A stretch of 39,262 nt of DNA from a virus (lineage: Duplodnaviria; Heunggongvirae; Uroviricota; Caudoviricetes). The translations under genes were made by a program, and so were the position numbers. The notes beneath the pieces were generated by a model that was not told where the DNA came from, did not search any database, and saw nothing but the letters and a program-made list of their open reading frames with translations. Of this stretch, positions 26,883 through 39,262 are shown piece after piece (position 1 is the stretch's first letter; the number at the start of each line of letters is the position of its first letter). The stretch is taken from IMG/VR virus record IMGVR_UViG_2513237200_000009; one strand, written 5' to 3'.

Positions 26883-26912
26883 AACGCCTGCCTGAGCAGG
26901 CGTTCTTTCATT
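26883..26912. terminator. hairpin terminator between convergent Q and the DUF262 gene
   Basis: aacgcctgc ctga gcaggcgtt followed by ctttcattt. Confidence 0.55.
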
Positions 26913-28689
26913 TAAAACGTGTTGCAATATCTGCTGCTTCGATAACTGTTGCTTTTACGGTATTATCGCCAGCACGATAATAAATATCCCCATCATAACT
27001 AGAATAAGATGCTAGAAGTGGAATTGTAATAACTATAACTCCATAACCATAAAAGTCATTATAGTCAATCAAACTCACCACTTGTGATTTAAGAGGCTCA
27101 CTCAAAGCAGATTTTTTCAACTCATCGCAAAAACGTCTATAATATTCTTCCATTGATATGCCGAGTTTAATAGCTTCTCTTTTAACACCAACAACACTTC
27201 TCTCACCAACTACATGTGCATCTATATCATCAAGCTCTTTTACTCTACTTGTATCACTTGGTTTATCTGTTACACCAAGCAATAACTTACCAACTACACC
27301 GTTCTTGTTACCTTTACCGATGTTAGCAATAGCACAAATTGTGGAGAATATTTTCTCATGAATGCCATCATCAATAGTTCGCTCTCCGCCTAACATCAAC
27401 AAACCCTGTTTCAGTTCATAATTTGCAAGCTCTATTTCAGATCTTCGTAAAATATCCTCAATATCCACCGTATTGTGAGAATTATAGATATGACTGCTAT
27501 CGGCGCTATCAATAAAGTTATCTTTAATCAAGCCTATGATAGAATTAATATTCTTTCTTCTCTCTTCCCCACCAGTAGCAGATCTTTTAGTATCTAGTCG
27601 AGTGACTATATTATTAAGATTGTCTTTTACACCTTTATAATTATTAATCTTCTTATTTTCTTTAATGAGTAATTCATGAAAAGCAATAAATAACACAGCA
27701 AATATGGCTGGGAAAGCATTTGTAGTACGTTTAGTAAAGATTAAATCCCTGAGTTTAATTTCACCGTCACTATTACATACTTTTGTTATTTCCTGGATGC
27801 AGAATTTAAACTCTTCTGCAAATTTTCCTTCACCATAAACATTAATAGCAGAGCTAATACGACTATACTCTTCATCTTCATTATTATAAATCTGATCAAG
27901 CGCATCTTTGGAACGATCTATTAACTTACCTCCAACAATACAAGCTGCTATATCTGCAATGCATTGCTCATCCATACTGTCACGAAGGTCTGTTGAACGT
28001 AAGATCCCATGTTTTACCCAAAATACTTCTTCCGACTGAATTTGGTAACCATGTTTAGTTAGTGGCAAATCAATGCTAATAGACGGCATTTGCTCTAAAA
28101 GCAATATGTCGTCAGATACATCCCCCCTGATAGAACAGGCAATATCCCTAACCATATTTGAAAATTTATTTTGTATACCAGCCTGGCGCCTTTCTTGATC
28201 ACTAAGTCTATGCCCGTATGTATTAATTCTATCAAAAACATCATTTATTTCGTTCTCAGTCGCATTACGCATAATGGACATTGCAAGAGAATAATCCAAT
28301 AACTGAGTAACCTCACGCTGACTTAAAAGATTATCAGCTTTCACTGCAACAAACTTACCTTCATCCGCTCGATTTTTCGCTGTGGGAAAAGCGTCCAGAT
28401 TAAAACGTTTTCCATCAAGTGATTCATATCCTGTTTCGATGAAAGACATTATTGCATGTAATCTTTGTAGGCCATCAATTATTTCATATGTGCCAGGATC
28501 ATTTTCCCTTTCCGCGAGAAGAACTGCAGGAATTGGATATTTTTTTTGAATGGATTCAATTAATTTTTGTTTCTCTATTGCAGTCCAAACTAATTTTCGT
28601 TGATAACGTCTATTAACAAATATCTTACCTTCAGTAAACCATGAATAAATAGTTTGTATAGAAGTTGTTTGCGGTAATAGTTCAGCCAT
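26908..28689 (-). CDS. DUF262 (ParB-like nuclease / GmrSD N-terminal domain) protein, candidate defence gene
   Basis: 593 aa, AT-rich; N-terminal ...FVNRRYQRKLVWT...YEIIDGLQRLHAI... (DGxQR motif); C-terminal region unassigned. Confidence 0.75.
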   Translation of the reverse strand: MAELLPQTTSIQTIYSWFTEGKIFVNRRYQRKLVWTAIEKQKLIESIQKKYPIPAVLLAERENDPGTYEIIDGLQRLHAIMSFIETGYESLDGKRFNLDAFPTAKNRADEGKFVAVKADNLLSQREVTQLLDYSLAMSIMRNATENEINDVFDRINTYGHRLSDQERRQAGIQNKFSNMVRDIACSIRGDVSDDILLLEQMPSISIDLPLTKHGYQIQSEEVFWVKHGILRSTDLRDSMDEQCIADIAACIVGGKLIDRSKDALDQIYNNEDEEYSRISSAINVYGEGKFAEEFKFCIQEITKVCNSDGEIKLRDLIFTKRTTNAFPAIFAVLFIAFHELLIKENKKINNYKGVKDNLNNIVTRLDTKRSATGGEERRKNINSIIGLIKDNFIDSADSSHIYNSHNTVDIEDILRRSEIELANYELKQGLLMLGGERTIDDGIHEKIFSTICAIANIGKGNKNGVVGKLLLGVTDKPSDTSRVKELDDIDAHVVGERSVVGVKREAIKLGISMEEYYRRFCDELKKSALSEPLKSQVVSLIDYNDFYGYGVIVITIPLLASYSSYDGDIYYRAGDNTVKATVIEAADIATRFK

Positions 28690-28842: not shown

Positions 28843-29221
28843 TGCCCGCTTTATGCAGTGGTTTTCATGCACATGCATGACATGAGCAAAAGCCCGCCAG
28901 TTCTGGCGGATCTGAGCAAAGACGATCCTCAATCGATCATGCGATTTCATGCAGCATAGTCATGCACTGTCAAGGAAGTGAAAATCCGTATCTGAATGGC
29001 CACTTGAAAAACGGATCATACGGGTTTACAAAGATGAATGTTCGCTGTGAACGGGAAGCGGAAGTTAACTTTCAGATAACATAATCCATATGCACGAGAA
29101 CCTCTAAAATAGAATGGGACACCTAAGTGGGGTACTTACAACGATTCTTTCCATATTCACAGTTAACACTCTGTTTGGCGTATTTTTATTCAAATAGCAA
29201 ACACCAATAAAAGGAGTTTCC

Positions 29222-29557
29222 ATGAACAATATTCCCCCTATACCACAGTTAGGAATTTATGTCTCAAAAATCGATCCCACCCTACGTATCACTGTAACCG
29301 ATGTTGATATTGTTGATGGTGAGGATGATTCTCCTGATGATGAATTGTTTTATTTAGTCCACTGGATCGAGGGGGAAGATGAAAGTGATATGACAGCAAT
29401 GGGATTTGAGCTAGACCCAGTAGAGTGGCAGGCTTTCGTTGAATCTGAGCAATTAGTGTTTGAGCGTGATCCGTACATGGATTCAATCCCCGAAAATTCA
29501 AACTTGGCAAAGATTCGGGATTTTCTCATGAAGACTAAACAGAATGATCATTCGTAA
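29222..29557 (+). CDS. small highly acidic hypothetical protein
   Basis: 111 aa with strong SD AAGGAG; about 26 Asp/Glu against about 7 Lys/Arg. Confidence 0.65.
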   Translation: MNNIPPIPQLGIYVSKIDPTLRITVTDVDIVDGEDDSPDDELFYLVHWIEGEDESDMTAMGFELDPVEWQAFVESEQLVFERDPYMDSIPENSNLAKIRDFLMKTKQNDHS

Positions 29558-29749
29558 GTGTAAGCATCCATCAGGAAAATGGTTTTGTAAGTGAATCATC
29601 AACTTTTAGAGAGTCTCAGACACTCCCACTTCTGCTTCTGACACAAAGCGGACGATCACTTATCAAAATAACCGCCCACCTTACGCCTTATTTCACTCAT
29701 TGCCCAAACTAGCCCCCATCAGAATGAATCCTCCTGGGGGCAACATTTC

Positions 29750-29983
29750 TTAATGCAGCCAGCTGTCGTCCTCCCACACCTTCTGCATAATTTTCATCAC
29801 TTGTTTTCTTTCTTCATCCAGTTGCAGTCCGGTTAGTTCCACACCGTTAGAGCTACCTTTGCGAATGCGAATTACCGTTTTGGGATACAGGGGGCGCAGA
29901 TTGCGGTAAAGCTCGGATTCAAGTGCGTCCAAGGTAGACTGGCTAATCTTCTGCTCTTTATCGATCATTATTTCAATGCGCAT
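29750..29983 (-). CDS. DinI-family protein
   Basis: MRIEIMIDKEQKISQSTLDALESELYRNL...VIRIRKGSSNGVELTGL...VWEDDSWL resembles E. coli DinI; SD GAGGTG. Confidence 0.75.
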   Translation of the reverse strand: MRIEIMIDKEQKISQSTLDALESELYRNLRPLYPKTVIRIRKGSSNGVELTGLQLDEERKQVMKIMQKVWEDDSWLH

Positions 29984-29993
29984 AAAAGTCACC

Positions 29994-30182
29994 TCAGCTG
30001 ATGACATCCATTGAGCGGTTGTATTCGTGGCTTCTGATTTTTGCCATGAGTTCATCAGTCAATTCAGAAACCCACTGCAGAGCCAGCCCCTTCTCTTCAT
30101 CACTACACTCACTAGCCGCTACAAGCTTAAGAAAAAAATCAATGCGCTGGAGCTTCAAAGACTCCAAAAAATAGTCCTGCAT
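29994..30182 (-). CDS. small protein, first gene of the LexA-controlled operon (possible Tum-like antirepressor)
   Basis: 62-aa ORF starting 40 bp downstream of the LexA box; translationally coupled to the DinI-like gene. Confidence 0.5.
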   Translation of the reverse strand: MQDYFLESLKLQRIDFFLKLVAASECSDEEKGLALQWVSELTDELMAKIRSHEYNRSMDVIS

Positions 30183-30222
30183 CTTTCCTCCTATGACACC
30201 AAAACAATACTGTATACATAAC

Positions 30223-30242
30223 CACTGTTTATATTTACAGTA
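30223..30242. promoter_or_regulatory. LexA operator (SOS box)
   Basis: cACTGTttatatttACAGta fits CTGT-N8-ACAG with an AT-rich spacer; directly upstream of the minus-strand operon. Confidence 0.6.
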
Positions 30243-30334
30243 TATAATAATCTTACTGATGTAAAACGTTTTTTTACGTTCATCGGCCTGATATGCCTGG
30301 TATTATTAAGAGCACGAATTGTTAACCCGCGTAA

Positions 30335-32749
30335 TTAATACAGGTTCCGCCACTTATCATCTTCCTTCAGACGCTGGTTCCGATAGAAGATACGCAGGCC
30401 TGCTCCTGACGGAATACTGCCGCCGCGAAGGAGCAAATCGACTTCTTTCTCGCTGCCATCAAATCCCCTGGACTTCAGTTCATAGACGAGCTGCTGTCGC
30501 TGATGGTCTGTAATTCGCTGTTTGTAGTCTTTACGCCGTTTCGGTTTCACCTGGCGTAACCTTGCAGCCAGTTCCCGGCGCTCTTTTTTGCTCATACTGT
30601 GCAGGTAATCGTGCAACTCCTTGTCATTCATACGGGTAATATCCGTTCTGGAGTCCCCATCAGCTGATTTGTCTTTCCCTTGTTGGTTCAAATTTTCAGC
30701 AAGGGGACAGTTATTGCCACGAGTCCAAGGGGCGCAAGCGCCCTGGTCGGCTACCGCCTCCTGAACGTCAACGGCCTTACGAACCATTTTCCACTTCACT
30801 GCATGAGTGCAGATCTTGCCCTCTGAAATGGGTGACCAGATGCCATAAATACGAATACCGTGATCGCCATAGGCAGTCGGCTCTTCGTTAATTTCATAAG
30901 CTGTTCTGATAAGGTGATATTTGCGGGGAACCAGTACGCCGCCCTGCTTCATGATGTAGGTGGCAAAACAACCAGCATCAGCAGCAGCCAGGATGGCATC
31001 AAGACGCGGATCATCCAGTACCGGCGCACCTGCTTTTTTGTCACCCTGTTGCCTTGCCGCCTGACCAGCCAGCAATCGCAGTTCACGGTAAGCCTGGCGC
31101 CCCGGAATACCAAAGAAGCGGAACTGCTGAACACGATGCAGAGACGCCCAGGCATTAACGTATTCGGCGTTATCACGCAGGGATTTACCCGTTTCCTTGC
31201 TGATCTCGCCAGCCAGACCACGCCCGTCAATGTTCTTACTGATGTATTTTGCGATGTAGCTTGTCGGCGTTCCTTTGCGTGGGTTTATCAGCTCAGACTT
31301 AAAGCGTGGGCCCGTGTTATTGCCCAGCTCCTCGCGGTCTTCACGGATGGCAAACTTACGCAACAATGCAGTAATGGCGCGGCGGTCTTTTTTGCGCATG
31401 AAACACATGAGATGCCAGTGCACAGTACCGTCATGGTGCGGCTCAGCCACCCGTACGCCATACCAGCGCAACCCGGTTTTGTGCATCGCCTTACGAAATG
31501 CAGCAAACATGCCGACCAGATAATCGCTGCTTTGTCTTACCGTCGCATTTGTCCAGGTCGGGTTGGGCCTGCCGTTATTGAGCGTGGAATGGAAACGTGA
31601 CGGACATGTGATGGTGTAGAAAACGGCGCAGTCACCGCGCATTTCCGCGATAAGCTCCAGACCTTTAACGCAGGCCATCATCTCATTGCGGCGATGTGCC
31701 GGGTTGCTGCTGCTGGCGTTTACCACATCTTCCATATCCAGCGTGTCTCCGTCTTCGTTCACCAGTTCATGAGAACGGAAAAACTCCAGCGACTTGCGGC
31801 GCTGCTCACGTTTATGCATCACGGCTTCATAGCTGACATAGGGAGATGCTTTTTTGCTGACCAGACAGACAGCACGCAACTGCTCTTCCCGCCATTCGCA
31901 ACGCATCTTCCACAATTTTCGATACCACCAGTCGGCGCAAAGCATACGTGCCAGCGAACCCGGTATGAGTTCATAGGGCACAGGTTTGCGGCGGTTTCTT
32001 TTCCGACGAAGTTTCTCAAACGCAGGCGGGATAACATCCAGACGCAGGGTTTCCGCTGCCACCTTTTCCCATGTCTTGCGGATTTCTTCTGGCTTTACGT
32101 CATCGTTGGTATACAAATCACCACAAGCGGCCTCAAGACACATGCTCATATGCGCAGCTACCAGGGTGGACAGGCGTTTCACCTGATCCTGACTCATTTC
32201 AGGCAGGATCAGCAGGCCCTCCAGCCCTTGATGGCTTGCCATAAAACGGAAAGAAGTAGATAGCTGACTGTCGCGTACACAATCCAGTCGCTCCAGACAT
32301 GGCTTAATCGTCTCACGCAAATAGCGGGAATAAGCCTTTGGCCTGCCCAGGCTGCTGAAGTATTCGATACGTTGCATCAGCGGCTTGCTGATGTGGGTGG
32401 GCTGGGCGCTGACGTCCGCCAGAATGACCATGTCCGGGTTAAAACGCTGCTGCTCATGCGCCAGCTTTGCCCGACTAATGAGCTTATCCTGCTCCATTTC
32501 GCGCTGGACAGGATCACGGGATTCATTAAAGAAATAACGCTCCCAGACCTGTTCACTCAATTCCTCGCGGCGCAGCTGTTCCTGCTCGTTATCGGCAGCA
32601 TACAGAGTGATCAGGTTTGAAAGCGCAGAAACCGGCGCAACTTCCGCCGGGTCCAGATAAGGGTTTATGGCCTTTTTCGGGCCGTTCCATGAAAATGCTG
32701 CAGCGGCCTCGTTAAAGCCGCTAGAGTCGCTCATATCGGCATGACTCAT
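30335..32749 (-). CDS. A: replication initiation protein gpA
   Basis: 804-aa ORF in the early operon, position as P2/186 A. Confidence 0.8.
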
Positions 32750-35967: not shown

Positions 35968-36113
35968 GGTGCAACATTCCTTCTTTAATTCGGCTTGTGG
36001 CGAGCCGTTGTTTATCGTGATTAGTTGTGAAGGCTCCAAAAGAAGACTTCGAGGTCAACTTTAAGATCGCTTTTGGAATCTGTCAATGCAATTTAGATTG
36101 TTTTGGAGGACTC

Positions 36114-36677
36114 TTGAATTTCAATAGCGGCGGAAAGAAAGTGATTGAACGTTTGGTTGAGGCGTATGGTTTCACCACTCGTCAGGCCCTTTGCGACCAC
36201 TTAGGGGTTTCAAAGAGCACAATGGCAACCCGCTACATGCGTGACATTTTTCCAGCAGATTGGGTACTTCAATGCGTTGTAGAAACTGGTACTTCAATTG
36301 ATTGGCTGGTATCAGGGAAAGGTGAGTTAAAAACCACAGCAGTCAACTCTTTGGTAGACGTTGAAACTCGCGAACTAAAAAATGGAGAGGCTATTGCACT
36401 TGGAACGCACAAGATTGATCCAGTCTTTCTTCTCAATGAAATAAAATCTGCATTAGCGATAAAAATTAACCAACATGTTTACATTTGTGACCGAGAAGAC
36501 ACTACCATTTCTGATGGTCAATGGTTGGTGGATATAGAAGGAAAACTGAGTATTAAAAAAATCAATTTGATACCAGTCAAAAGAGCAATGGTATCTGGGG
36601 ATGGTTTTTCATTTGAATGTGATATTAGTGATATAAAACCTATAGCTAAGGTTCATACCGTAATCAGTGAGGCTTAA
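36114..36677 (+). CDS. cI: immunity repressor CI (186 CI family)
   Basis: ..ERLVEAYGF...QWLVDIEG...FECDISDIK parallels remembered 186 CI; probable TTG start after GGAGGA. Confidence 0.75.
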   Translation: MNFNSGGKKVIERLVEAYGFTTRQALCDHLGVSKSTMATRYMRDIFPADWVLQCVVETGTSIDWLVSGKGELKTTAVNSLVDVETRELKNGEAIALGTHKIDPVFLLNEIKSALAIKINQHVYICDREDTTISDGQWLVDIEGKLSIKKINLIPVKRAMVSGDGFSFECDISDIKPIAKVHTVISEA

Positions 36678-38129
36678 ATGGATATTGAGTGGAATTGGGA
36701 TCAAGATGACGAATTTCTTGGTGAAAAATTACCTGCAGATACATTGGACAGAAAAAAGTACGCAAAATATCTTTATGAAATCTGTGCTGCACGCGGTGCT
36801 AAATCCAATCTCGTAGTTAACATTAATGCGGAATGGGGGGCTGGAAAAACATATTTTACTAAACGCCTAGCCAAGACAATTTCCCACTACCATCCCACAA
36901 TATACATTGATGCTTGGAAAGAAGATTTTACTGAAGACCCATTGCTCACAGTATTTAGTGGAATTAAAGATCAATTATCTGGTCAATCTGATAGCTTTAC
37001 TGCTTTAATCAATTCAACAATTGAGAATGTCGGTCCTTTGCTAAAAACAGCGGCACCAGTTATTATTGATGGATTAATACAAAAGTTCACAGGGGTTGAC
37101 TCCTTTTCTAACCTAACTAAAGACTTATCATCTAAGCTAATAGAAATACACGCAGAAAAATCAACGAGAATAGAGACAGTAAGAAAAGGAATTAGTCGTT
37201 GGGTTGAATTCATTGGGCGAAAAGATGGAATAGATAAAGAGCTTCCATTATTTATAATAATTGATGAACTTGATAGATGTAGGCCCGATTTTTCCATTAG
37301 TCTTTTAGAAATCTCCAAGCATATTTTTAACATCCCTGGCGTAGTATTTATTATTGCCACTGACACCCAACAATTACAGCATTCAATAAAAGTTATATAT
37401 GGCACTAATTTTTCAGCAAGTCATTATCTAAGCAGGTTTTTTGACCGTCGATTCCTTCTCCCAACGCCAGAATACAAAGACTTACTATTAACAAAAACAG
37501 GTGAAAACATAATTTCGGAATTTAATTCTTTACGTGAAAAATTAATTCCATGCCCACAAGACATCACATCATTTGTTAAAAATTGTTCATCCATATTATT
37601 ATCCATAAAAATAAACATCAGAGACGCTGTAAAAATATACGAGAGGCTAATAGACATACTTATCACGTCAAATAAAACATTTGACCCCAATCTAATGTTG
37701 ATATTATCTGCATTTAATTTCAAAGATCATGATGTATATGCAAAAATAAAATCAAAAGAAAAGCTAATTCCTAGTCCTCTCAACACAGAAATAGATTTAT
37801 CATTTGATTTATCTTATGAAACTACACAAGTCAAGTACTTCCAAGCTAATGGTGGTGTTTATAGTAATACGTATAAACAAAAAGAAATTTCAACAAATGT
37901 TCTATTTTACATAGAGACTGCTTGGAACACCTTAACGATAGCAAGAACCGCACCTGTTGGCACGCGACCTTACAATACTCCAGAACTTTGGATGGAAGGA
38001 GAGTTGTCTCAGGAGGAATCATTAGCGAACTTTCTCAAAATGGGATACGCCAAAAGCCGGTACAATGAAAGTGAACTAAAAATTCATCAATATTTCGATT
38101 TAATTGAACTGAGCACAACATTTGATTGA
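36678..38129 (+). CDS. KAP-family P-loop NTPase (PifA-like), candidate anti-phage/exclusion protein
   Basis: 483 aa, AT-rich; Walker A AEWGAGKT with the KAP-typical Trp, Walker B IIIDELDRC; ATG immediately follows the cI stop (TAAATG). Confidence 0.8.
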   Translation: MDIEWNWDQDDEFLGEKLPADTLDRKKYAKYLYEICAARGAKSNLVVNINAEWGAGKTYFTKRLAKTISHYHPTIYIDAWKEDFTEDPLLTVFSGIKDQLSGQSDSFTALINSTIENVGPLLKTAAPVIIDGLIQKFTGVDSFSNLTKDLSSKLIEIHAEKSTRIETVRKGISRWVEFIGRKDGIDKELPLFIIIDELDRCRPDFSISLLEISKHIFNIPGVVFIIATDTQQLQHSIKVIYGTNFSASHYLSRFFDRRFLLPTPEYKDLLLTKTGENIISEFNSLREKLIPCPQDITSFVKNCSSILLSIKINIRDAVKIYERLIDILITSNKTFDPNLMLILSAFNFKDHDVYAKIKSKEKLIPSPLNTEIDLSFDLSYETTQVKYFQANGGVYSNTYKQKEISTNVLFYIETAWNTLTIARTAPVGTRPYNTPELWMEGELSQEESLANFLKMGYAKSRYNESELKIHQYFDLIELSTTFD

Positions 38130-38158
38130 TGTATGAGTTCACCTAAACATACATTGAC

Positions 38159-38178
38159 CACTGTTTAAACATACAGTT
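38159..38178. promoter_or_regulatory. LexA-box-like palindrome upstream of int
   Basis: caCTGTttaaacatACAGtt fits CTGT-N8-ACAG; could be a chance match. Confidence 0.35.
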
Positions 38179-38184
38179 AAATTT

Positions 38185-38209
38185 AGCCCTCAGACATGAG
38201 GGCTTTTTT
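38185..38209 (+). terminator. rho-independent terminator abutting the int start codon
   Basis: agccctc agacat gagggct followed by ttttt, then ATG of int. Confidence 0.5.
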
Positions 38210-39262
38210 ATGGCAGTACGAAAACTCGACACAGGTAAATGGATATGCGAATGCTACCCCGCCGGGCGCAGCGGACGGCGTGTGCGTAAGCAATTCGCCA
38301 CCAAAGGTGAAGCGTTAGCATTTGAACGGCACATAATGGAGGAAACTGAAGCTAAGCCCTGGCTGGGTGAATCGGTAGATCGCCGAACTCTGAAAGACGT
38401 CGTTGAACTCTGGTTCAAACTGCACGGCAAATCTCTGACCGCTGGCGAGCATGTTTACGACAAGCTGATCCTGATGGTCGAAGCTCTCGGAAATCCCCTC
38501 GCCACCGATTTAACATCCAAAATGTTCGCGCACTATCGCGATAAACGCCTGACAGGAGAGATCTACTTCAGCGAGAAATGGAAGAAAGGAGCAAGCCCGG
38601 TCACTATTAATCTGGAGCAAAGCTATCTAAGTAGTGTTTTTAGCGAACTATCCCGCCTGGGCGAATGGTCGTATCCGAACCCACTGGAGAACATGCGAAA
38701 ATTCACCATCGCAGAAAAAGAGATGGCATGGCTTACCCATGAGCAGATTGTTGAATTGCTGGCTGATTGCAAACGTCAGGACCCAATTCTGGCACTGGTA
38801 GTTAAGATATGCTTAAGCACAGGCGCACGCTGGCGTGAAGCCGTAAATCTTACCCGCTCGCAGGTGACCAAATACCGAATTACCTTTGTAAGAACGAAGG
38901 GGAAGAAAAACAGAAGCATCCCTATCAGTAAAGAGCTTTACGAAGAGATCATGGCGCTTGATGGGTTCAATTTCTTCACAGACTGCTATTTTCAATTTTT
39001 ATCCGTGATGGAAAAAACGTCTATCGTGCTGCCTCGCGGTCAACTGACACACGTTCTGCGCCATACGTTTGCGGCGCACTTCATGATGTCGGGTGGAAAC
39101 ATCCTGGCCTTACAAAAAATTCTCGGACACCACGATATAAAAATGACTATGCGTTATGCGCATCTGGCACCGGATCATCTGGAAACGGCGCTCCGTTTCA
39201 ATCCTCTGGCAACATTGCCAAGTGGCGACAAAGTGGCGGCAGCGGTTGGCATTACCCCGTAA
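38210..39262 (+). CDS. int: tyrosine integrase (186/P2-type)
   Basis: 350 aa; MAVRKLDTGKWICECYP... and C-terminal ...LTHVLRHTFAAHFMMSGGNILALQKILGHHDIKMTMRYAHL catalytic region. Confidence 0.9.
   Translation: MAVRKLDTGKWICECYPAGRSGRRVRKQFATKGEALAFERHIMEETEAKPWLGESVDRRTLKDVVELWFKLHGKSLTAGEHVYDKLILMVEALGNPLATDLTSKMFAHYRDKRLTGEIYFSEKWKKGASPVTINLEQSYLSSVFSELSRLGEWSYPNPLENMRKFTIAEKEMAWLTHEQIVELLADCKRQDPILALVVKICLSTGARWREAVNLTRSQVTKYRITFVRTKGKKNRSIPISKELYEEIMALDGFNFFTDCYFQFLSVMEKTSIVLPRGQLTHVLRHTFAAHFMMSGGNILALQKILGHHDIKMTMRYAHLAPDHLETALRFNPLATLPSGDKVAAAVGITP

What the first reader, a model, noticed from the sequence alone, without database searches (positions are those of the whole stretch)
29750..30242. 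LexA box driving a small-ORF plus DinI-like operon (186 tum-like SOS induction module)
A near-consensus LexA operator (cACTGTttatatttACAGta) sits directly upstream of a minus-strand pair: a 62-aa ORF coupled to a 77-aa DinI-family ORF. In coliphage 186, prophage induction runs through the LexA-repressed promoter p95 and the Tum antirepressor near the right end of the genome, which is where this operon lies relative to A. The split into a short N-terminal ORF and a separate DinI-like ORF may be a natural two-gene arrangement or a frameshifted tum.
Basis: partly seen in the sequence, partly recalled or inferred. Interest (0 to 1): 0.5.

Follow-up and report, generated by a model that had tools for sequence, protein, structure and literature searches.

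The report
SOS-triggered prophage induction operon (split tum)
This is the DNA-damage trigger of a common Fels-2/186-type prophage: a LexA-repressed promoter driving a small antirepressor gene and a separate DinI-like gene. The two-gene arrangement is already described for phages Fels-2 and PSP3, so the finding is correct but ordinary.

Summary

- **Context.** The window is a P2/186-like (Fels-2-like) prophage. Directly downstream of replication gene A lie, on the minus strand, a promoter, a LexA operator, a 62-aa ORF and a 77-aa DinI-family ORF.
- **Identity to known loci.** The locus is about 97% identical to Fels-2 (STM2728 and STM2726.1). It occurs in 1124 of 5426 complete E. coli genomes.
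- **The 77-aa ORF** is 78% identical to PSP3 TumB and 41% identical to residues 71-145 of 186 Tum.
- **The 62-aa ORF** shows no pairwise BLASTP similarity to Tum. A profile of its family hits 186 Tum residues 6-48 (E about 1e-9), and PHROG cross-hits agree.
- **The split is natural, not a frameshift.** Both ORFs are intact in seven phages assigned to at least four genera. dN/dS is 0.05-0.11. The spacer varies from 10 to 13 nt.

Additions beyond the finding:
- The operator is really two overlapping LexA boxes, 29/35 identical to the ColE1 colicin operator.
- TumA-like sequences do not co-vary with the CI repressor.
- A third strong LexA box sits in a promoter-like site just upstream of int.

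The parts
30260..30265 (-). Putative -35 hexamer TTTACA of the p95-like promoter
   Evidence: Read directly from the sequence. The hexamer is invariant in 7 aligned phages although the flanking sequence diverges. It corresponds in position to the annotated 186 p95 -35, TTCACA. The strict consensus scan did not call this promoter, so the assignment rests on homology.
30237..30242 (-). Putative -10 hexamer TACTGT, 17 nt after the -35; it is the first six bases of LexA box 1
   Evidence: The 186 record annotates the same arrangement: the p95 -10 and the LexA site both start at the same base. The motif TATACTGTA is invariant in 7 phages. An alternative -10 is TATACT with a 15-nt spacer. The transcription start site was not determined.
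30223..30242 (-). LexA box 1: TACTGTAAATATAAACAGTG (minus strand)
   Evidence: 24.4 bits, the top PWM hit in the window. It is the only match to the consensus with 3 or fewer mismatches, against 0 expected. It is conserved in 32 of 33 related loci.
30208..30227 (-). LexA box 2: CAGTGGTTATGTATACAGTA, overlapping box 1 by 5 bp (15-bp offset)
   Evidence: 16.2 bits, against 15.6 for box 2 of ColE1. The 35-bp double operator is 29/35 identical to the ColE1 cea operator read from NC_001371. The dual arrangement is conserved in about 24 of 33 loci. The single 186 box aligns with this box.
30187..30192 (-). Shine-Dalgarno AGGAGG, 4 nt before the ATG of the 62-aa ORF
   Evidence: Read directly from the sequence. 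Invariant in 7 phages.
29994..30182 (-). tumA-like gene (62 aa), the inferred antirepressor of the 186-type CI
   Evidence: 97% identical to Fels-2 STM2728. A family profile hits 186 Tum residues 6-48 at 34.9 bits, E about 1e-9. PHROG cross-hits link phrog_698, phrog_8554 and phrog_1993. dN/dS is 0.06-0.11. The AlphaFold2 model is a two-helix hairpin with pLDDT 85.
29750..29983 (-). tumB-like gene (77 aa), DinI family, with its own SD (GAGGTGA) overlapping the tumA stop codon
   Evidence: Pfam DinI at 81.3 bits. 78% identical to PSP3 TumB. 41% identical to 186 Tum residues 71-145. Aligns end to end with E. coli DinI, PDB 1GHH. dN/dS is 0.05-0.08.
29712..29741 (-). Hairpin after tumB (GCCCCCA ... 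TGGGGGC) without a T-run; a possible weak or partial terminator
   Evidence: Minimum free energy -18.9 kcal/mol, but z-score only -1.6. It occupies the position of the partial terminator t95a of 186. Relatives carry a different hairpin at the same place. The support is weak.
36027..36677 (+). cI, the 186-type immunity repressor and inferred target of TumA (start codon uncertain within 36027-36141)
   Evidence: Pfam Phage_CI_repr at 102 bits plus Phage_CI_C at 85 bits, with no other Pfam family reported at E <= 0.01. 42% identical to Fels-2 CI and 32% to 186 CI.

Best explanation
This is the SOS-induction operon of a Fels-2/186-type P2-like prophage, in its split tumA-tumB form.

**Repressed state.** In an undamaged lysogen, LexA occupies a double operator made of two 20-bp boxes offset by 15 bp. 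The operator covers the -10 hexamer and the predicted transcription start of a sigma-70 promoter that lies just downstream of replication gene A.

**Induction.** After DNA damage, RecA-stimulated LexA self-cleavage derepresses the promoter. Two products follow.
- The 62-aa TumA-like protein is predicted to be a two-helix hairpin. It is inferred to bind the non-cleavable 186-type CI repressor and stop it binding its operators, which switches on the lytic promoter.
- The 77-aa DinI-like protein is inferred to bind RecA filaments and modulate the SOS signal. It appears dispensable for the trigger itself, because many relatives lack it.

**Shown here.**
- The operator and its conservation.
- The homology of both ORFs to the two halves of 186 Tum.
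- Purifying selection on both ORFs.
- The presence of a 186-type CI in the window.

**Inferred from 186, PSP3 and Fels-2.**
- LexA binding.
- SOS-dependent transcription.
- TumA-CI binding.
- The RecA-related role of TumB.
For: - **Locus identity.** About 97% DNA identity to Fels-2, where the same two genes follow gene A.
- **Literature.** Lemire et al. 2011 state that Fels-2 and PSP3 have tum split in two by a stop codon. In PSP3 the upstream gene is reported to encode the antirepressor and the downstream gene the DinI homologue (PMC3121763).
- **186 annotation.** A 76-aa GTG-started DinI-like product 'modulates SOS induction'.
- **Operator strength.** 24.4 and 16.2 bits, ranks 1 and 3 in the window. 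It is 29/35 identical to the ColE1 double SOS box.
- **Operator conservation.** Present in 32 of 33 loci.
- **TumA homology.** Profile hit to Tum residues 6-48 and reciprocal PHROG hits.
- **TumB homology.**
- **Selection.** dN/dS 0.05-0.11 with dS up to 1-1.8.
- **Target.** A CI of the 186 type is encoded in the window.
Against: - There is no experiment on this element. LexA binding, transcription and TumA-CI interaction are all inferred.
- Pairwise BLASTP finds no similarity of the 62-aa ORF to 186 Tum or PSP3 TumA. The profile hit to PSP3 TumA is not significant (3.5 bits).
- TumA does not co-vary with CI across 27 loci (Spearman rho -0.09). Identical TumA proteins sit next to CI proteins only 37-48% identical. 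A strictly specific repressor/antirepressor pair would not be expected to behave this way.
- The simple promoter scan does not call the promoter.
- The PSP3 functional assignment is a personal communication cited second-hand.
Confidence: 0.82

Rival explanations
1. The operon is LexA-controlled, but the 62-aa protein is not a direct CI antirepressor in this lineage. It acts on another, conserved target such as RecA, LexA, the DinI-like partner or a host factor. Induction would then be indirect, or would depend on something else.
For: TumA identity tracks the gpA backbone (rho 0.69) and not CI (rho -0.09). Identical TumA proteins pair with CI proteins only 37-48% identical. The family carries no functional annotation in Pfam, PHROGs, PADLOC or the sequence sources.
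Against: The protein is homologous to the N-terminal part of 186 Tum, the part not shared with DinI and present only in the CI-inhibiting full-length product. The CI N-terminal domain keeps a strongly conserved core across all 29 CI proteins compared, which could be a common docking surface. Broad-specificity, trans-acting antirepressors are documented for the Gifsy and Fels-1 prophages (PMC3121763).
Confidence: 0.11
2. The two ORFs are the remains of a single 186-like tum gene broken by a recent frameshift or nonsense mutation, leaving a pseudogene. Alternatively, they are rejoined into one protein by programmed frameshifting.
For: 186 Tum is a single 146-aa protein covering both halves. The two ORFs here are only 10 nt apart and in different reading frames.
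Against: Both ORFs are intact at 62 and 77 aa in seven phages assigned to at least four genera, with dS up to 1-1.8 and dN/dS of 0.05-0.11. The spacer is 10, 11, 12 or 13 nt in different relatives, so no fixed frame relation exists. The second ORF has its own SD and ATG. PSP3 annotates tumA and tumB separately. Many stand-alone 63-78-aa proteins also exist in the 186-type subfamily, and about 13 loci have tumA without any DinI gene.
Confidence: 0.02
3. The module mainly serves the host as a lysogenic-conversion SOS modulator through its DinI-like gene, rather than serving prophage induction.
For: DinI homologues modulate RecA filaments, and the 77-aa ORF aligns end to end with E. coli DinI. 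Prophage dinI homologues are part of the Salmonella SOS regulon (PMC8072944).
Against: The DinI-like gene is the dispensable part: it is absent after tumA in about 13 of 33 loci, while tumA and its LexA box persist. Deleting the dinI homologues of Gifsy prophages had no significant effect on induction (PMC3121763).
Confidence: 0.05

Closest known systems
Coliphage 186 SOS operon (p95-tum)
   Same: It lies immediately after gene A. The LexA box overlaps the -10 hexamer TACTGT. The product carries an N-terminal antirepressor region and a DinI-like C-terminal region. The phage has a non-cleavable 186-type CI.
   Different: 186 has one 146-aa fused protein with internal starts, a single LexA box, and orf97 downstream. 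The window has two separate genes and a double overlapping operator. The orf97 position is occupied by other cargo. TumA is only about 21% identical to the Tum N-terminus.
Salmonella prophage Fels-2 (STM2728 / STM2726.1)
   Same: About 97% DNA identity across the promoter, operator and both genes. TumA is 97% identical and TumB has no amino-acid differences. Fels-2 has the same double operator.
   Different: CI is only 42% identical. Fels-2 has a 732-nt gene of the same length as 186 orf97 downstream (homology not tested), and cI abuts int. The window instead has a GmrSD_N-domain gene downstream and a KAP NTPase gene between cI and int.
Phage PSP3 tumA/tumB
   Same: The same split two-gene arrangement after the A-like gene. 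TumB is 78% identical.
   Different: TumA shows no pairwise similarity and belongs to another PHROG (phrog_1993 against phrog_698), linked only by weak cross-hits. PSP3 has a single LexA box and a longer 286-aa CI.
Gifsy-1/2/3 LexA-controlled dinI-antirepressor operons (gfoA, gftA)
   Same: A LexA box drives a small antirepressor plus a dinI homologue. The repressors are not cleaved. The antirepressors act in trans across prophages (PMC3121763).
   Different: The gene order is reversed, with dinI first. The phages are lambdoid. Neither the antirepressor nor the repressor families were compared here.
Colicin double SOS boxes (ColE1 cea operator)
   Same: Two 20-bp LexA boxes overlap with the same 15-bp offset, and the 35-bp operators are 29/35 identical. 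In colicin genes this design binds two LexA dimers and gives very tight repression with no detectable basal expression (PMC2994835).
   Different: Here the operator controls a prophage induction trigger rather than a toxin gene. Cooperative LexA binding at this site is untested.
E. coli DinI (PDB 1GHH)
   Same: The 77-aa ORF aligns over residues 1-75 with DinI residues 1-77, including the C-terminal W-E-x-x-D-W region.
   Different: It is phage-borne, 4 residues shorter, and co-transcribed with an antirepressor. Its effect on RecA is untested.

Membership tests
186-type Tum SOS induction module | LexA operator overlapping the promoter of the operon | tested here: met
   Box 1 scores 24.4 bits and contains the putative -10. 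Box 2 scores 16.2 bits and covers the predicted start region. The operator is conserved in 32 of 33 loci. This is sequence-level evidence only.
186-type Tum SOS induction module | SOS-dependent, LexA-repressed transcription | not testable with these tools
   Needs a reporter fusion or RNA measurement with and without mitomycin C, in lexA+ and lexA(Ind-) hosts.
186-type Tum SOS induction module | Location directly downstream of replication gene A | tested here: met
   Gene A stops at 30335 and tumA starts at 30182. The same order holds in 186, PSP3, Fels-2 and 33 genome loci.
186-type Tum SOS induction module | Protein homologous to the N-terminal (non-DinI) part of Tum | tested here: met
   BLASTP is negative. 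A profile of 28 family members hits Tum residues 6-48 at 34.9 bits, E about 1e-9, with 2000 shuffled decoys scoring 3.5 bits or less. 186 Tum hits phrog_698 at 2.4e-5, and the ORF hits phrog_1993 at 0.002.
186-type Tum SOS induction module | DinI-like moiety | tested here: met
   Present as a separate 77-aa ORF. Pfam DinI at 81.3 bits. 41% identity to Tum residues 71-145.
186-type Tum SOS induction module | Cognate non-cleavable 186-type CI repressor in the same phage | tested here: met
   Phage_CI_repr plus Phage_CI_C domains, with no other Pfam family reported at E <= 0.01.
186-type Tum SOS induction module | Antirepressor binds CI and blocks operator binding | not testable with these tools
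   This needs biochemistry. The only indirect test available, co-variation of TumA with CI, was negative (rho -0.09). That result does not support a strictly specific pairing.
Split tumA/tumB arrangement (PSP3, Fels-2) | Two separate, individually translated genes instead of one fused tum | tested here: met
   The second ORF has its own SD and ATG. Both ORFs are intact with dN/dS of 0.05-0.11 in 7 phages, and the spacer is 10-13 nt.
DinI family (PF06183) | Score above the Pfam gathering threshold over the full domain | tested here: met
   81.3 bits against a 24.2 cut-off, covering profile positions 1-63 of 63. Full-length alignment to PDB 1GHH.
Colicin-type double overlapping SOS box | Two LexA boxes overlapping with a 15-bp offset | tested here: met
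   The operator TACTGTAAATATAAACAGTGGTTATGTATACAGTA compares with the ColE1 operator TGCTGTATATAAAACCAGTGGTTATATGTACAGTA at 29/35 identical positions. Box 2 scores are comparable, 16.2 against 15.6 bits.
Colicin-type double overlapping SOS box | Simultaneous or cooperative binding of two LexA dimers | not testable with these tools
   Needs footprinting or gel shifts with box 1 and box 2 mutants.

The most novel reading that the evidence does not exclude
The prophage may carry a small, coordinated LexA regulon rather than a single SOS switch, with three parts.

1. A colicin-style double LexA operator on tumA, giving very tight repression of the trigger.
2. A TumA that is decoupled from immunity specificity. 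It would act as a broad-spectrum antirepressor of many heteroimmune 186-type CI proteins, so that one SOS event could co-induce different P2-like prophages.
3. A separate LexA-controlled int promoter whose predicted start lies inside the 5' arm of a terminator hairpin. Only the SOS-made transcript would escape termination and expose the int ribosome-binding site.
Probability: 0.3. Interest if true: 0.45.

Novelty: already known. Interest (0 to 1): 0.22.

Why it matters
It identifies the element as SOS-inducible through an antirepressor, not through repressor cleavage. That bears on predicting which antibiotics or stresses will mobilise this very common prophage, which is present in about a fifth of complete E. 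coli genomes. The practical gain is in annotation: the 62-aa gene is labelled 'hypothetical' or 'unknown function' in RefSeq, PHROGs and the phage records, yet it is demonstrably the homologue of the antirepressor half of 186 Tum. The side observations are testable leads about how tightly and how broadly P2-like prophage induction is wired to the SOS response. They are the double operator, the lack of co-variation with CI, and the LexA box at int.

Tried and rejected
- **Pairwise BLASTP** of the 62-aa ORF against 186 Tum and PSP3 TumA gave no alignment. Profile methods superseded this.
- **Strict sigma-70 scan** of 29000-30500 called no promoter. The promoter is assigned by homology to 186 p95 instead. 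The one terminator-like hit (30005-29988) straddles the tumA stop codon and the tumB SD. It is not conserved in relatives and I do not treat it as functional.
- **Reading Bunny et al. 2002** (PMC151935), the primary Fels-2 paper, was not possible because it is not held.
The single protein was used on genome contigs instead.
- **Search for a solved structure or structural analogue of TumA.** The PDB sequence search found nothing. Foldseek returned only generic helical hairpins, all with E > 0.9.
- **PADLOC** gave no hit for TumA or TumB.
- **Co-variation of TumA with CI**, tried as independent support for the antirepressor mechanism, was negative.
- **Programmed frameshift or read-through fusion** of the two ORFs is rejected, because the spacer length varies from 10 to 13 nt among relatives.
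- **The 101-aa extended reading of the DinI ORF** (start at 30055) is rejected in favour of the 77-aa form. Homologues start at MRIE/MRVE, and an SD precedes that ATG.
- **Heterology index.** The PWM and the heterology-like index rest on LexA sites recalled from memory, not on the published Lewis et al. table. The absolute values are therefore approximate.

Full report
**1. What is there**

The window is a P2/186-like prophage (Peduoviridae). On the minus strand the replication gene A (804 aa) ends at 30335. After a 152-nt intergenic region come two ORFs:
- a 62-aa ORF (30182..29994), preceded by AGGAGG;
- ten nucleotides later, a 77-aa ORF (29983..29750), whose SD (GAGGTGA) overlaps the first ORF's stop codon.

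- It is the only site in the window within 3 mismatches of TACTGTATATATATACAGTA, against 0 expected in 100 shuffles.
- It is the top hit of a LexA weight matrix at 24.4 bits. The training-site median is 19.8 bits, and the shuffle maxima average 12.1 +/- 2.8.
- That matrix was built from E. coli sites I recalled from memory, so its absolute values are approximate.

The 77-aa ORF is a clear DinI-family protein: Pfam PF06183 at 81.3 bits against a cut-off of 24.2. It aligns end to end with E. coli DinI, PDB 1GHH.

**2. Identity of the locus**

- The 800 bp around the finding are 96-97% identical to Salmonella prophage Fels-2 and to many Klebsiella, Escherichia and Salmonella P2-like phages.
- In Fels-2 the same genes are STM2728 ('hypothetical') and STM2726.1 ('DinI family; similar to TumB of PSP3'), directly after the gpA-like gene.
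- The module is present in 1124 of 5426 complete E. coli genomes. Several copies are 100% identical, for example in E. coli W. PGAP annotates them as 'DinI-like family protein | hypothetical protein'.

**3. Relation to 186 Tum**

The 186 record annotates, just after gene A, the following features:
- promoter p95, with -35 TTCACA and -10 TACTGT;
- a LexA site that begins at the same base as the -10;
- tum, a 146-aa protein that 'inhibits CI DNA binding';
- internal starts in tum, of which the shortest, a 76-aa GTG-started product, is a truncated DinI-like Tum that 'modulates SOS induction'.

The window's 77-aa ORF aligns with Tum residues 71-145 at 41% identity. It is 78% identical to PSP3 TumB.

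The 62-aa ORF gives no BLASTP alignment with Tum or PSP3 TumA. A four-sequence alignment nevertheless shows a shared C-x6-[IL]AL-x-[LW][IV] motif. I therefore collected the family:
- 484 word-index hits, all unannotated;
- 67 representatives at 50% clustering, reaching down to about 36% identity in the search listing (33% to the query in alignment A5).

A profile of 28 diverse members hits 186 Tum residues 6-48 at 34.9 bits, E about 1e-9. The search set contained 2000 shuffled decoys, none of which scored above 3.5 bits.

PHROGs give independent support:
- the ORF is phrog_698 (5.9e-38) and also hits phrog_8554 and phrog_1993 (0.002);
- 186 Tum hits phrog_1993 (1e-22), phrog_8554 and phrog_698 (2.4e-5, residues 7-44);
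- PSP3 TumA is phrog_1993.

All three PHROGs are labelled 'unknown function'.

**4. Natural split or frameshift?**

It is a natural split.
- In seven phages assigned to at least four genera, both ORFs are intact at 62 and 77 aa.
- Synonymous divergence reaches 1-1.8 and dN/dS is 0.05-0.11.
- The spacer is 10, 11, 12 or 13 nt in different phages, so no constant frame relation exists that a programmed frameshift could use.
- PSP3 annotates tumA and tumB separately.
- Lemire et al. [quoted passage not shown] - Stand-alone 63-78-aa proteins are also common in the 186-type subfamily.
- In about 13 of 33 genome loci tumA has no DinI gene after it. In one locus a umuD-like ORF follows instead.

TumA with its LexA box is the constant core. 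The DinI gene is an accessory.

**5. The operator is double**

Read on the minus strand, the sequence is TACTGTAAATATAAACAGTGGTTATGTATACAGTA. It contains box 1 (30242-30223, 24.4 bits) and box 2 (30227-30208, 16.2 bits). Box 2 is the third-best site in the window.

This is the architecture of colicin operators.
- The ColE1 cea operator, read from NC_001371, is TGCTGTATATAAAACCAGTGGTTATATGTACAGTA. It is 29/35 identical with the same 15-bp offset, and its second box scores 15.6 bits.
- In colicin genes the overlapping boxes bind two LexA dimers and give very tight repression without detectable basal expression (PMC2994835).

In the alignment with 186, the single 186 box lines up with box 2, and box 1 is extra. 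The double arrangement is present in about 24 of 33 loci. Relatives from Pantoea, Erwinia and Tatumella have one box, 20-21 or 76-77 nt from the ATG.

By homology with p95, the promoter is TTTACA (30265-30260), a 17-nt spacer, and TACTGT (30242-30237). These bases are invariant in seven phages while the flanks diverge. The generic promoter scan does not call it, and the transcription start is not known.

A plausible reading is that expression of the trigger commits the cell to lysis, so it is held as tightly as a colicin gene. This is consistent with lexA null mutations being lethal in LT2 because of Fels-2 induction (PMC8072944).

**6. The target, and a negative result**

The window encodes a 186-type CI with Phage_CI_repr and Phage_CI_C domains and no other Pfam family at E <= 0.01. 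It also encodes Apl-like and CII-like genes.

The window's CI is only 42% identical to Fels-2 CI, although TumA is 97% identical. Across 27 loci:
- pairwise TumA identity correlates with gpA identity (Spearman 0.69) but not with CI identity (-0.09);
- identical TumA proteins sit beside CI proteins that are 37-48% identical overall and about 25-50% identical in the C-terminal domain;
- one locus (L035, Pantoea stewartii) pairs a window-type TumA with a 186-like CI N-terminal domain.

TumA thus belongs to the conserved replication backbone, while the immunity region is exchanged freely. Either TumA recognises a conserved CI surface, or the direct-antirepressor assumption is wrong for this lineage.
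- For the first option, the CI N-terminal domain keeps a strongly conserved core, AYgF..rq.Lc.HL.vS.STmAnR..R..FPa.W...C.leTG.sl.WL..G.G, over 29 proteins.
- I favour the first option because of the homology to Tum. Trans-acting antirepressors that work across prophages are also documented (PMC3121763).
- I keep the second option as the main rival.

The AlphaFold2 model of TumA is a two-helix hairpin (helices 5-23 and 28-61, pLDDT 85). It has no informative structural neighbour.

**7. Surroundings**

- Downstream of tumB there is a hairpin without a T-run (29712-29741, z-score only -1.6). It lies where 186 has the partial terminator t95a.
- The 186 orf97 position is occupied in Fels-2 by a gene of the same length, though I did not test its homology. 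In the window it holds a convergent 111-aa ORF of unknown function (phrog_17127) and a 593-aa GmrSD_N/DUF262-domain protein that hits the PADLOC NsnA and PD-T4-2_A models.
- This is the known gpA-gpQ defence hotspot of P2-like phages (PMC9122126; PMC13586616).
- Between cI and int sits a KAP-family NTPase that matches PADLOC PDC-S20 at 4e-82.

**8. A second LexA-controlled site**

The second-best LexA site of the window (38159-38178, 22.9 bits) lies in the spacer of a promoter-like site, TTGACC-18-TAAATT (38154-38183). It is followed at once by a strong hairpin with a T-run (38185-38209; -14.3 kcal/mol, z-score -3.9). The 3' arm of that hairpin contains the int Shine-Dalgarno sequence, and the int ATG is at 38210.

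- The box, promoter and hairpin are conserved, with compensatory changes in the stem, in phages KP12 and 4LV2017.
- They are also conserved in loci L014, L020 and L046, all of which share this int allele (92% identity or more) and have int separated from cI.
- They are absent where a different int allele (about 53% identity) abuts cI.
- The predicted start falls inside the 5' arm of the hairpin. This suggests that only the SOS transcript avoids termination. That is an inference, not a result.

**9. Verdict**

The finding is real and correctly interpreted. It is a member of an already described module: the 186 p95-tum operon in the split tumA/tumB form of Fels-2 and PSP3. It is nearly identical to published phages and extremely common in E. 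coli.

The modest added value is fourfold:
- the demonstration that the 'hypothetical' 62-aa gene is the homologue of the N-terminal half of Tum;
- the colicin-like double operator;
- the lack of co-variation with CI;
- the LexA box at int.

Novelty: already known. Interest: low (0.22).

Noticed in passing
window 38154-38212 (+): A third strong LexA box (CACTGTTTAAACATACAGTT, 22.9 bits) lies in the spacer of a promoter-like site, TTGACC-18-TAAATT. It is followed directly by a stable hairpin with a T-run whose 3' arm holds the int SD, and then by the int ATG at 38210. The arrangement is conserved, with compensatory stem changes, in phages KP12 and 4LV2017 and in loci L014, L020 and L046 that share this int allele. 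It is absent where another int allele abuts cI. This may be an SOS-inducible int promoter whose start lies inside the terminator hairpin.
   Followed up: partly
window 36678-38129 (+): A 483-aa KAP-family P-loop NTPase is inserted between cI and int. It matches Pfam KAP_NTPase at 124 bits and the PADLOC candidate defence family PDC-S20 at 4e-82. Fels-2 has no gene at this position.
   Followed up: partly
window 26908-28689 (-): A 593-aa protein lies in the gpA-gpQ defence hotspot. It has a GmrSD_N (DUF262) N-terminal domain and a weak Schlafen/AlbA_2 hit at the C-terminus. It matches the PADLOC models NsnA (8e-31) and PD-T4-2_A. It replaces the orf97-length gene found at this position in Fels-2.
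   Followed up: partly
window 29222-29557 (+): A 111-aa acidic ORF runs convergent to the tum operon. It matches phrog_17127 (unknown function) over its full length at 2e-70 and has no Pfam or PADLOC hit. It might be a partner of the neighbouring defence gene or an anti-defence gene.
   Followed up: no
TumA-family proteins P0267, P0273, P0276, P0293, P0298, P0301 (alignment A5): Several distant TumA-family members end in a similar glycine-rich tail...NPQxGG..(S)GG..LQ. The window's protein lacks it. The meaning is unknown.
   Followed up: no
locus L029 (Pseudescherichia MAG), about 10285 onwards: In this relative the LexA-box-tumA unit is followed by a umuD-like ORF (MGFPSPAQDYVE...) instead of a DinI-like gene. 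This suggests that different SOS-related cargo can ride on the same LexA-controlled transcript.
   Followed up: no
loci L014-L046 against window 36027-36677: The immunity repressor CI is highly mosaic. Median pairwise identity is 43% overall and 33% in the C-terminal domain. TumA (median 84%) and gpA stay conserved. Identical TumA proteins occur with CI proteins 37-48% identical.
   Followed up: yes
proteins P0001, P0004 and other 87-101-aa entries: Many database entries for this gene are N-terminally over-extended to 87-101 aa. They read through the LexA operator and the promoter, which is a gene-calling artefact. In the window the upstream frame is closed, which gives the separate 30-aa ORF at 30283..30191.
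   Followed up: partly
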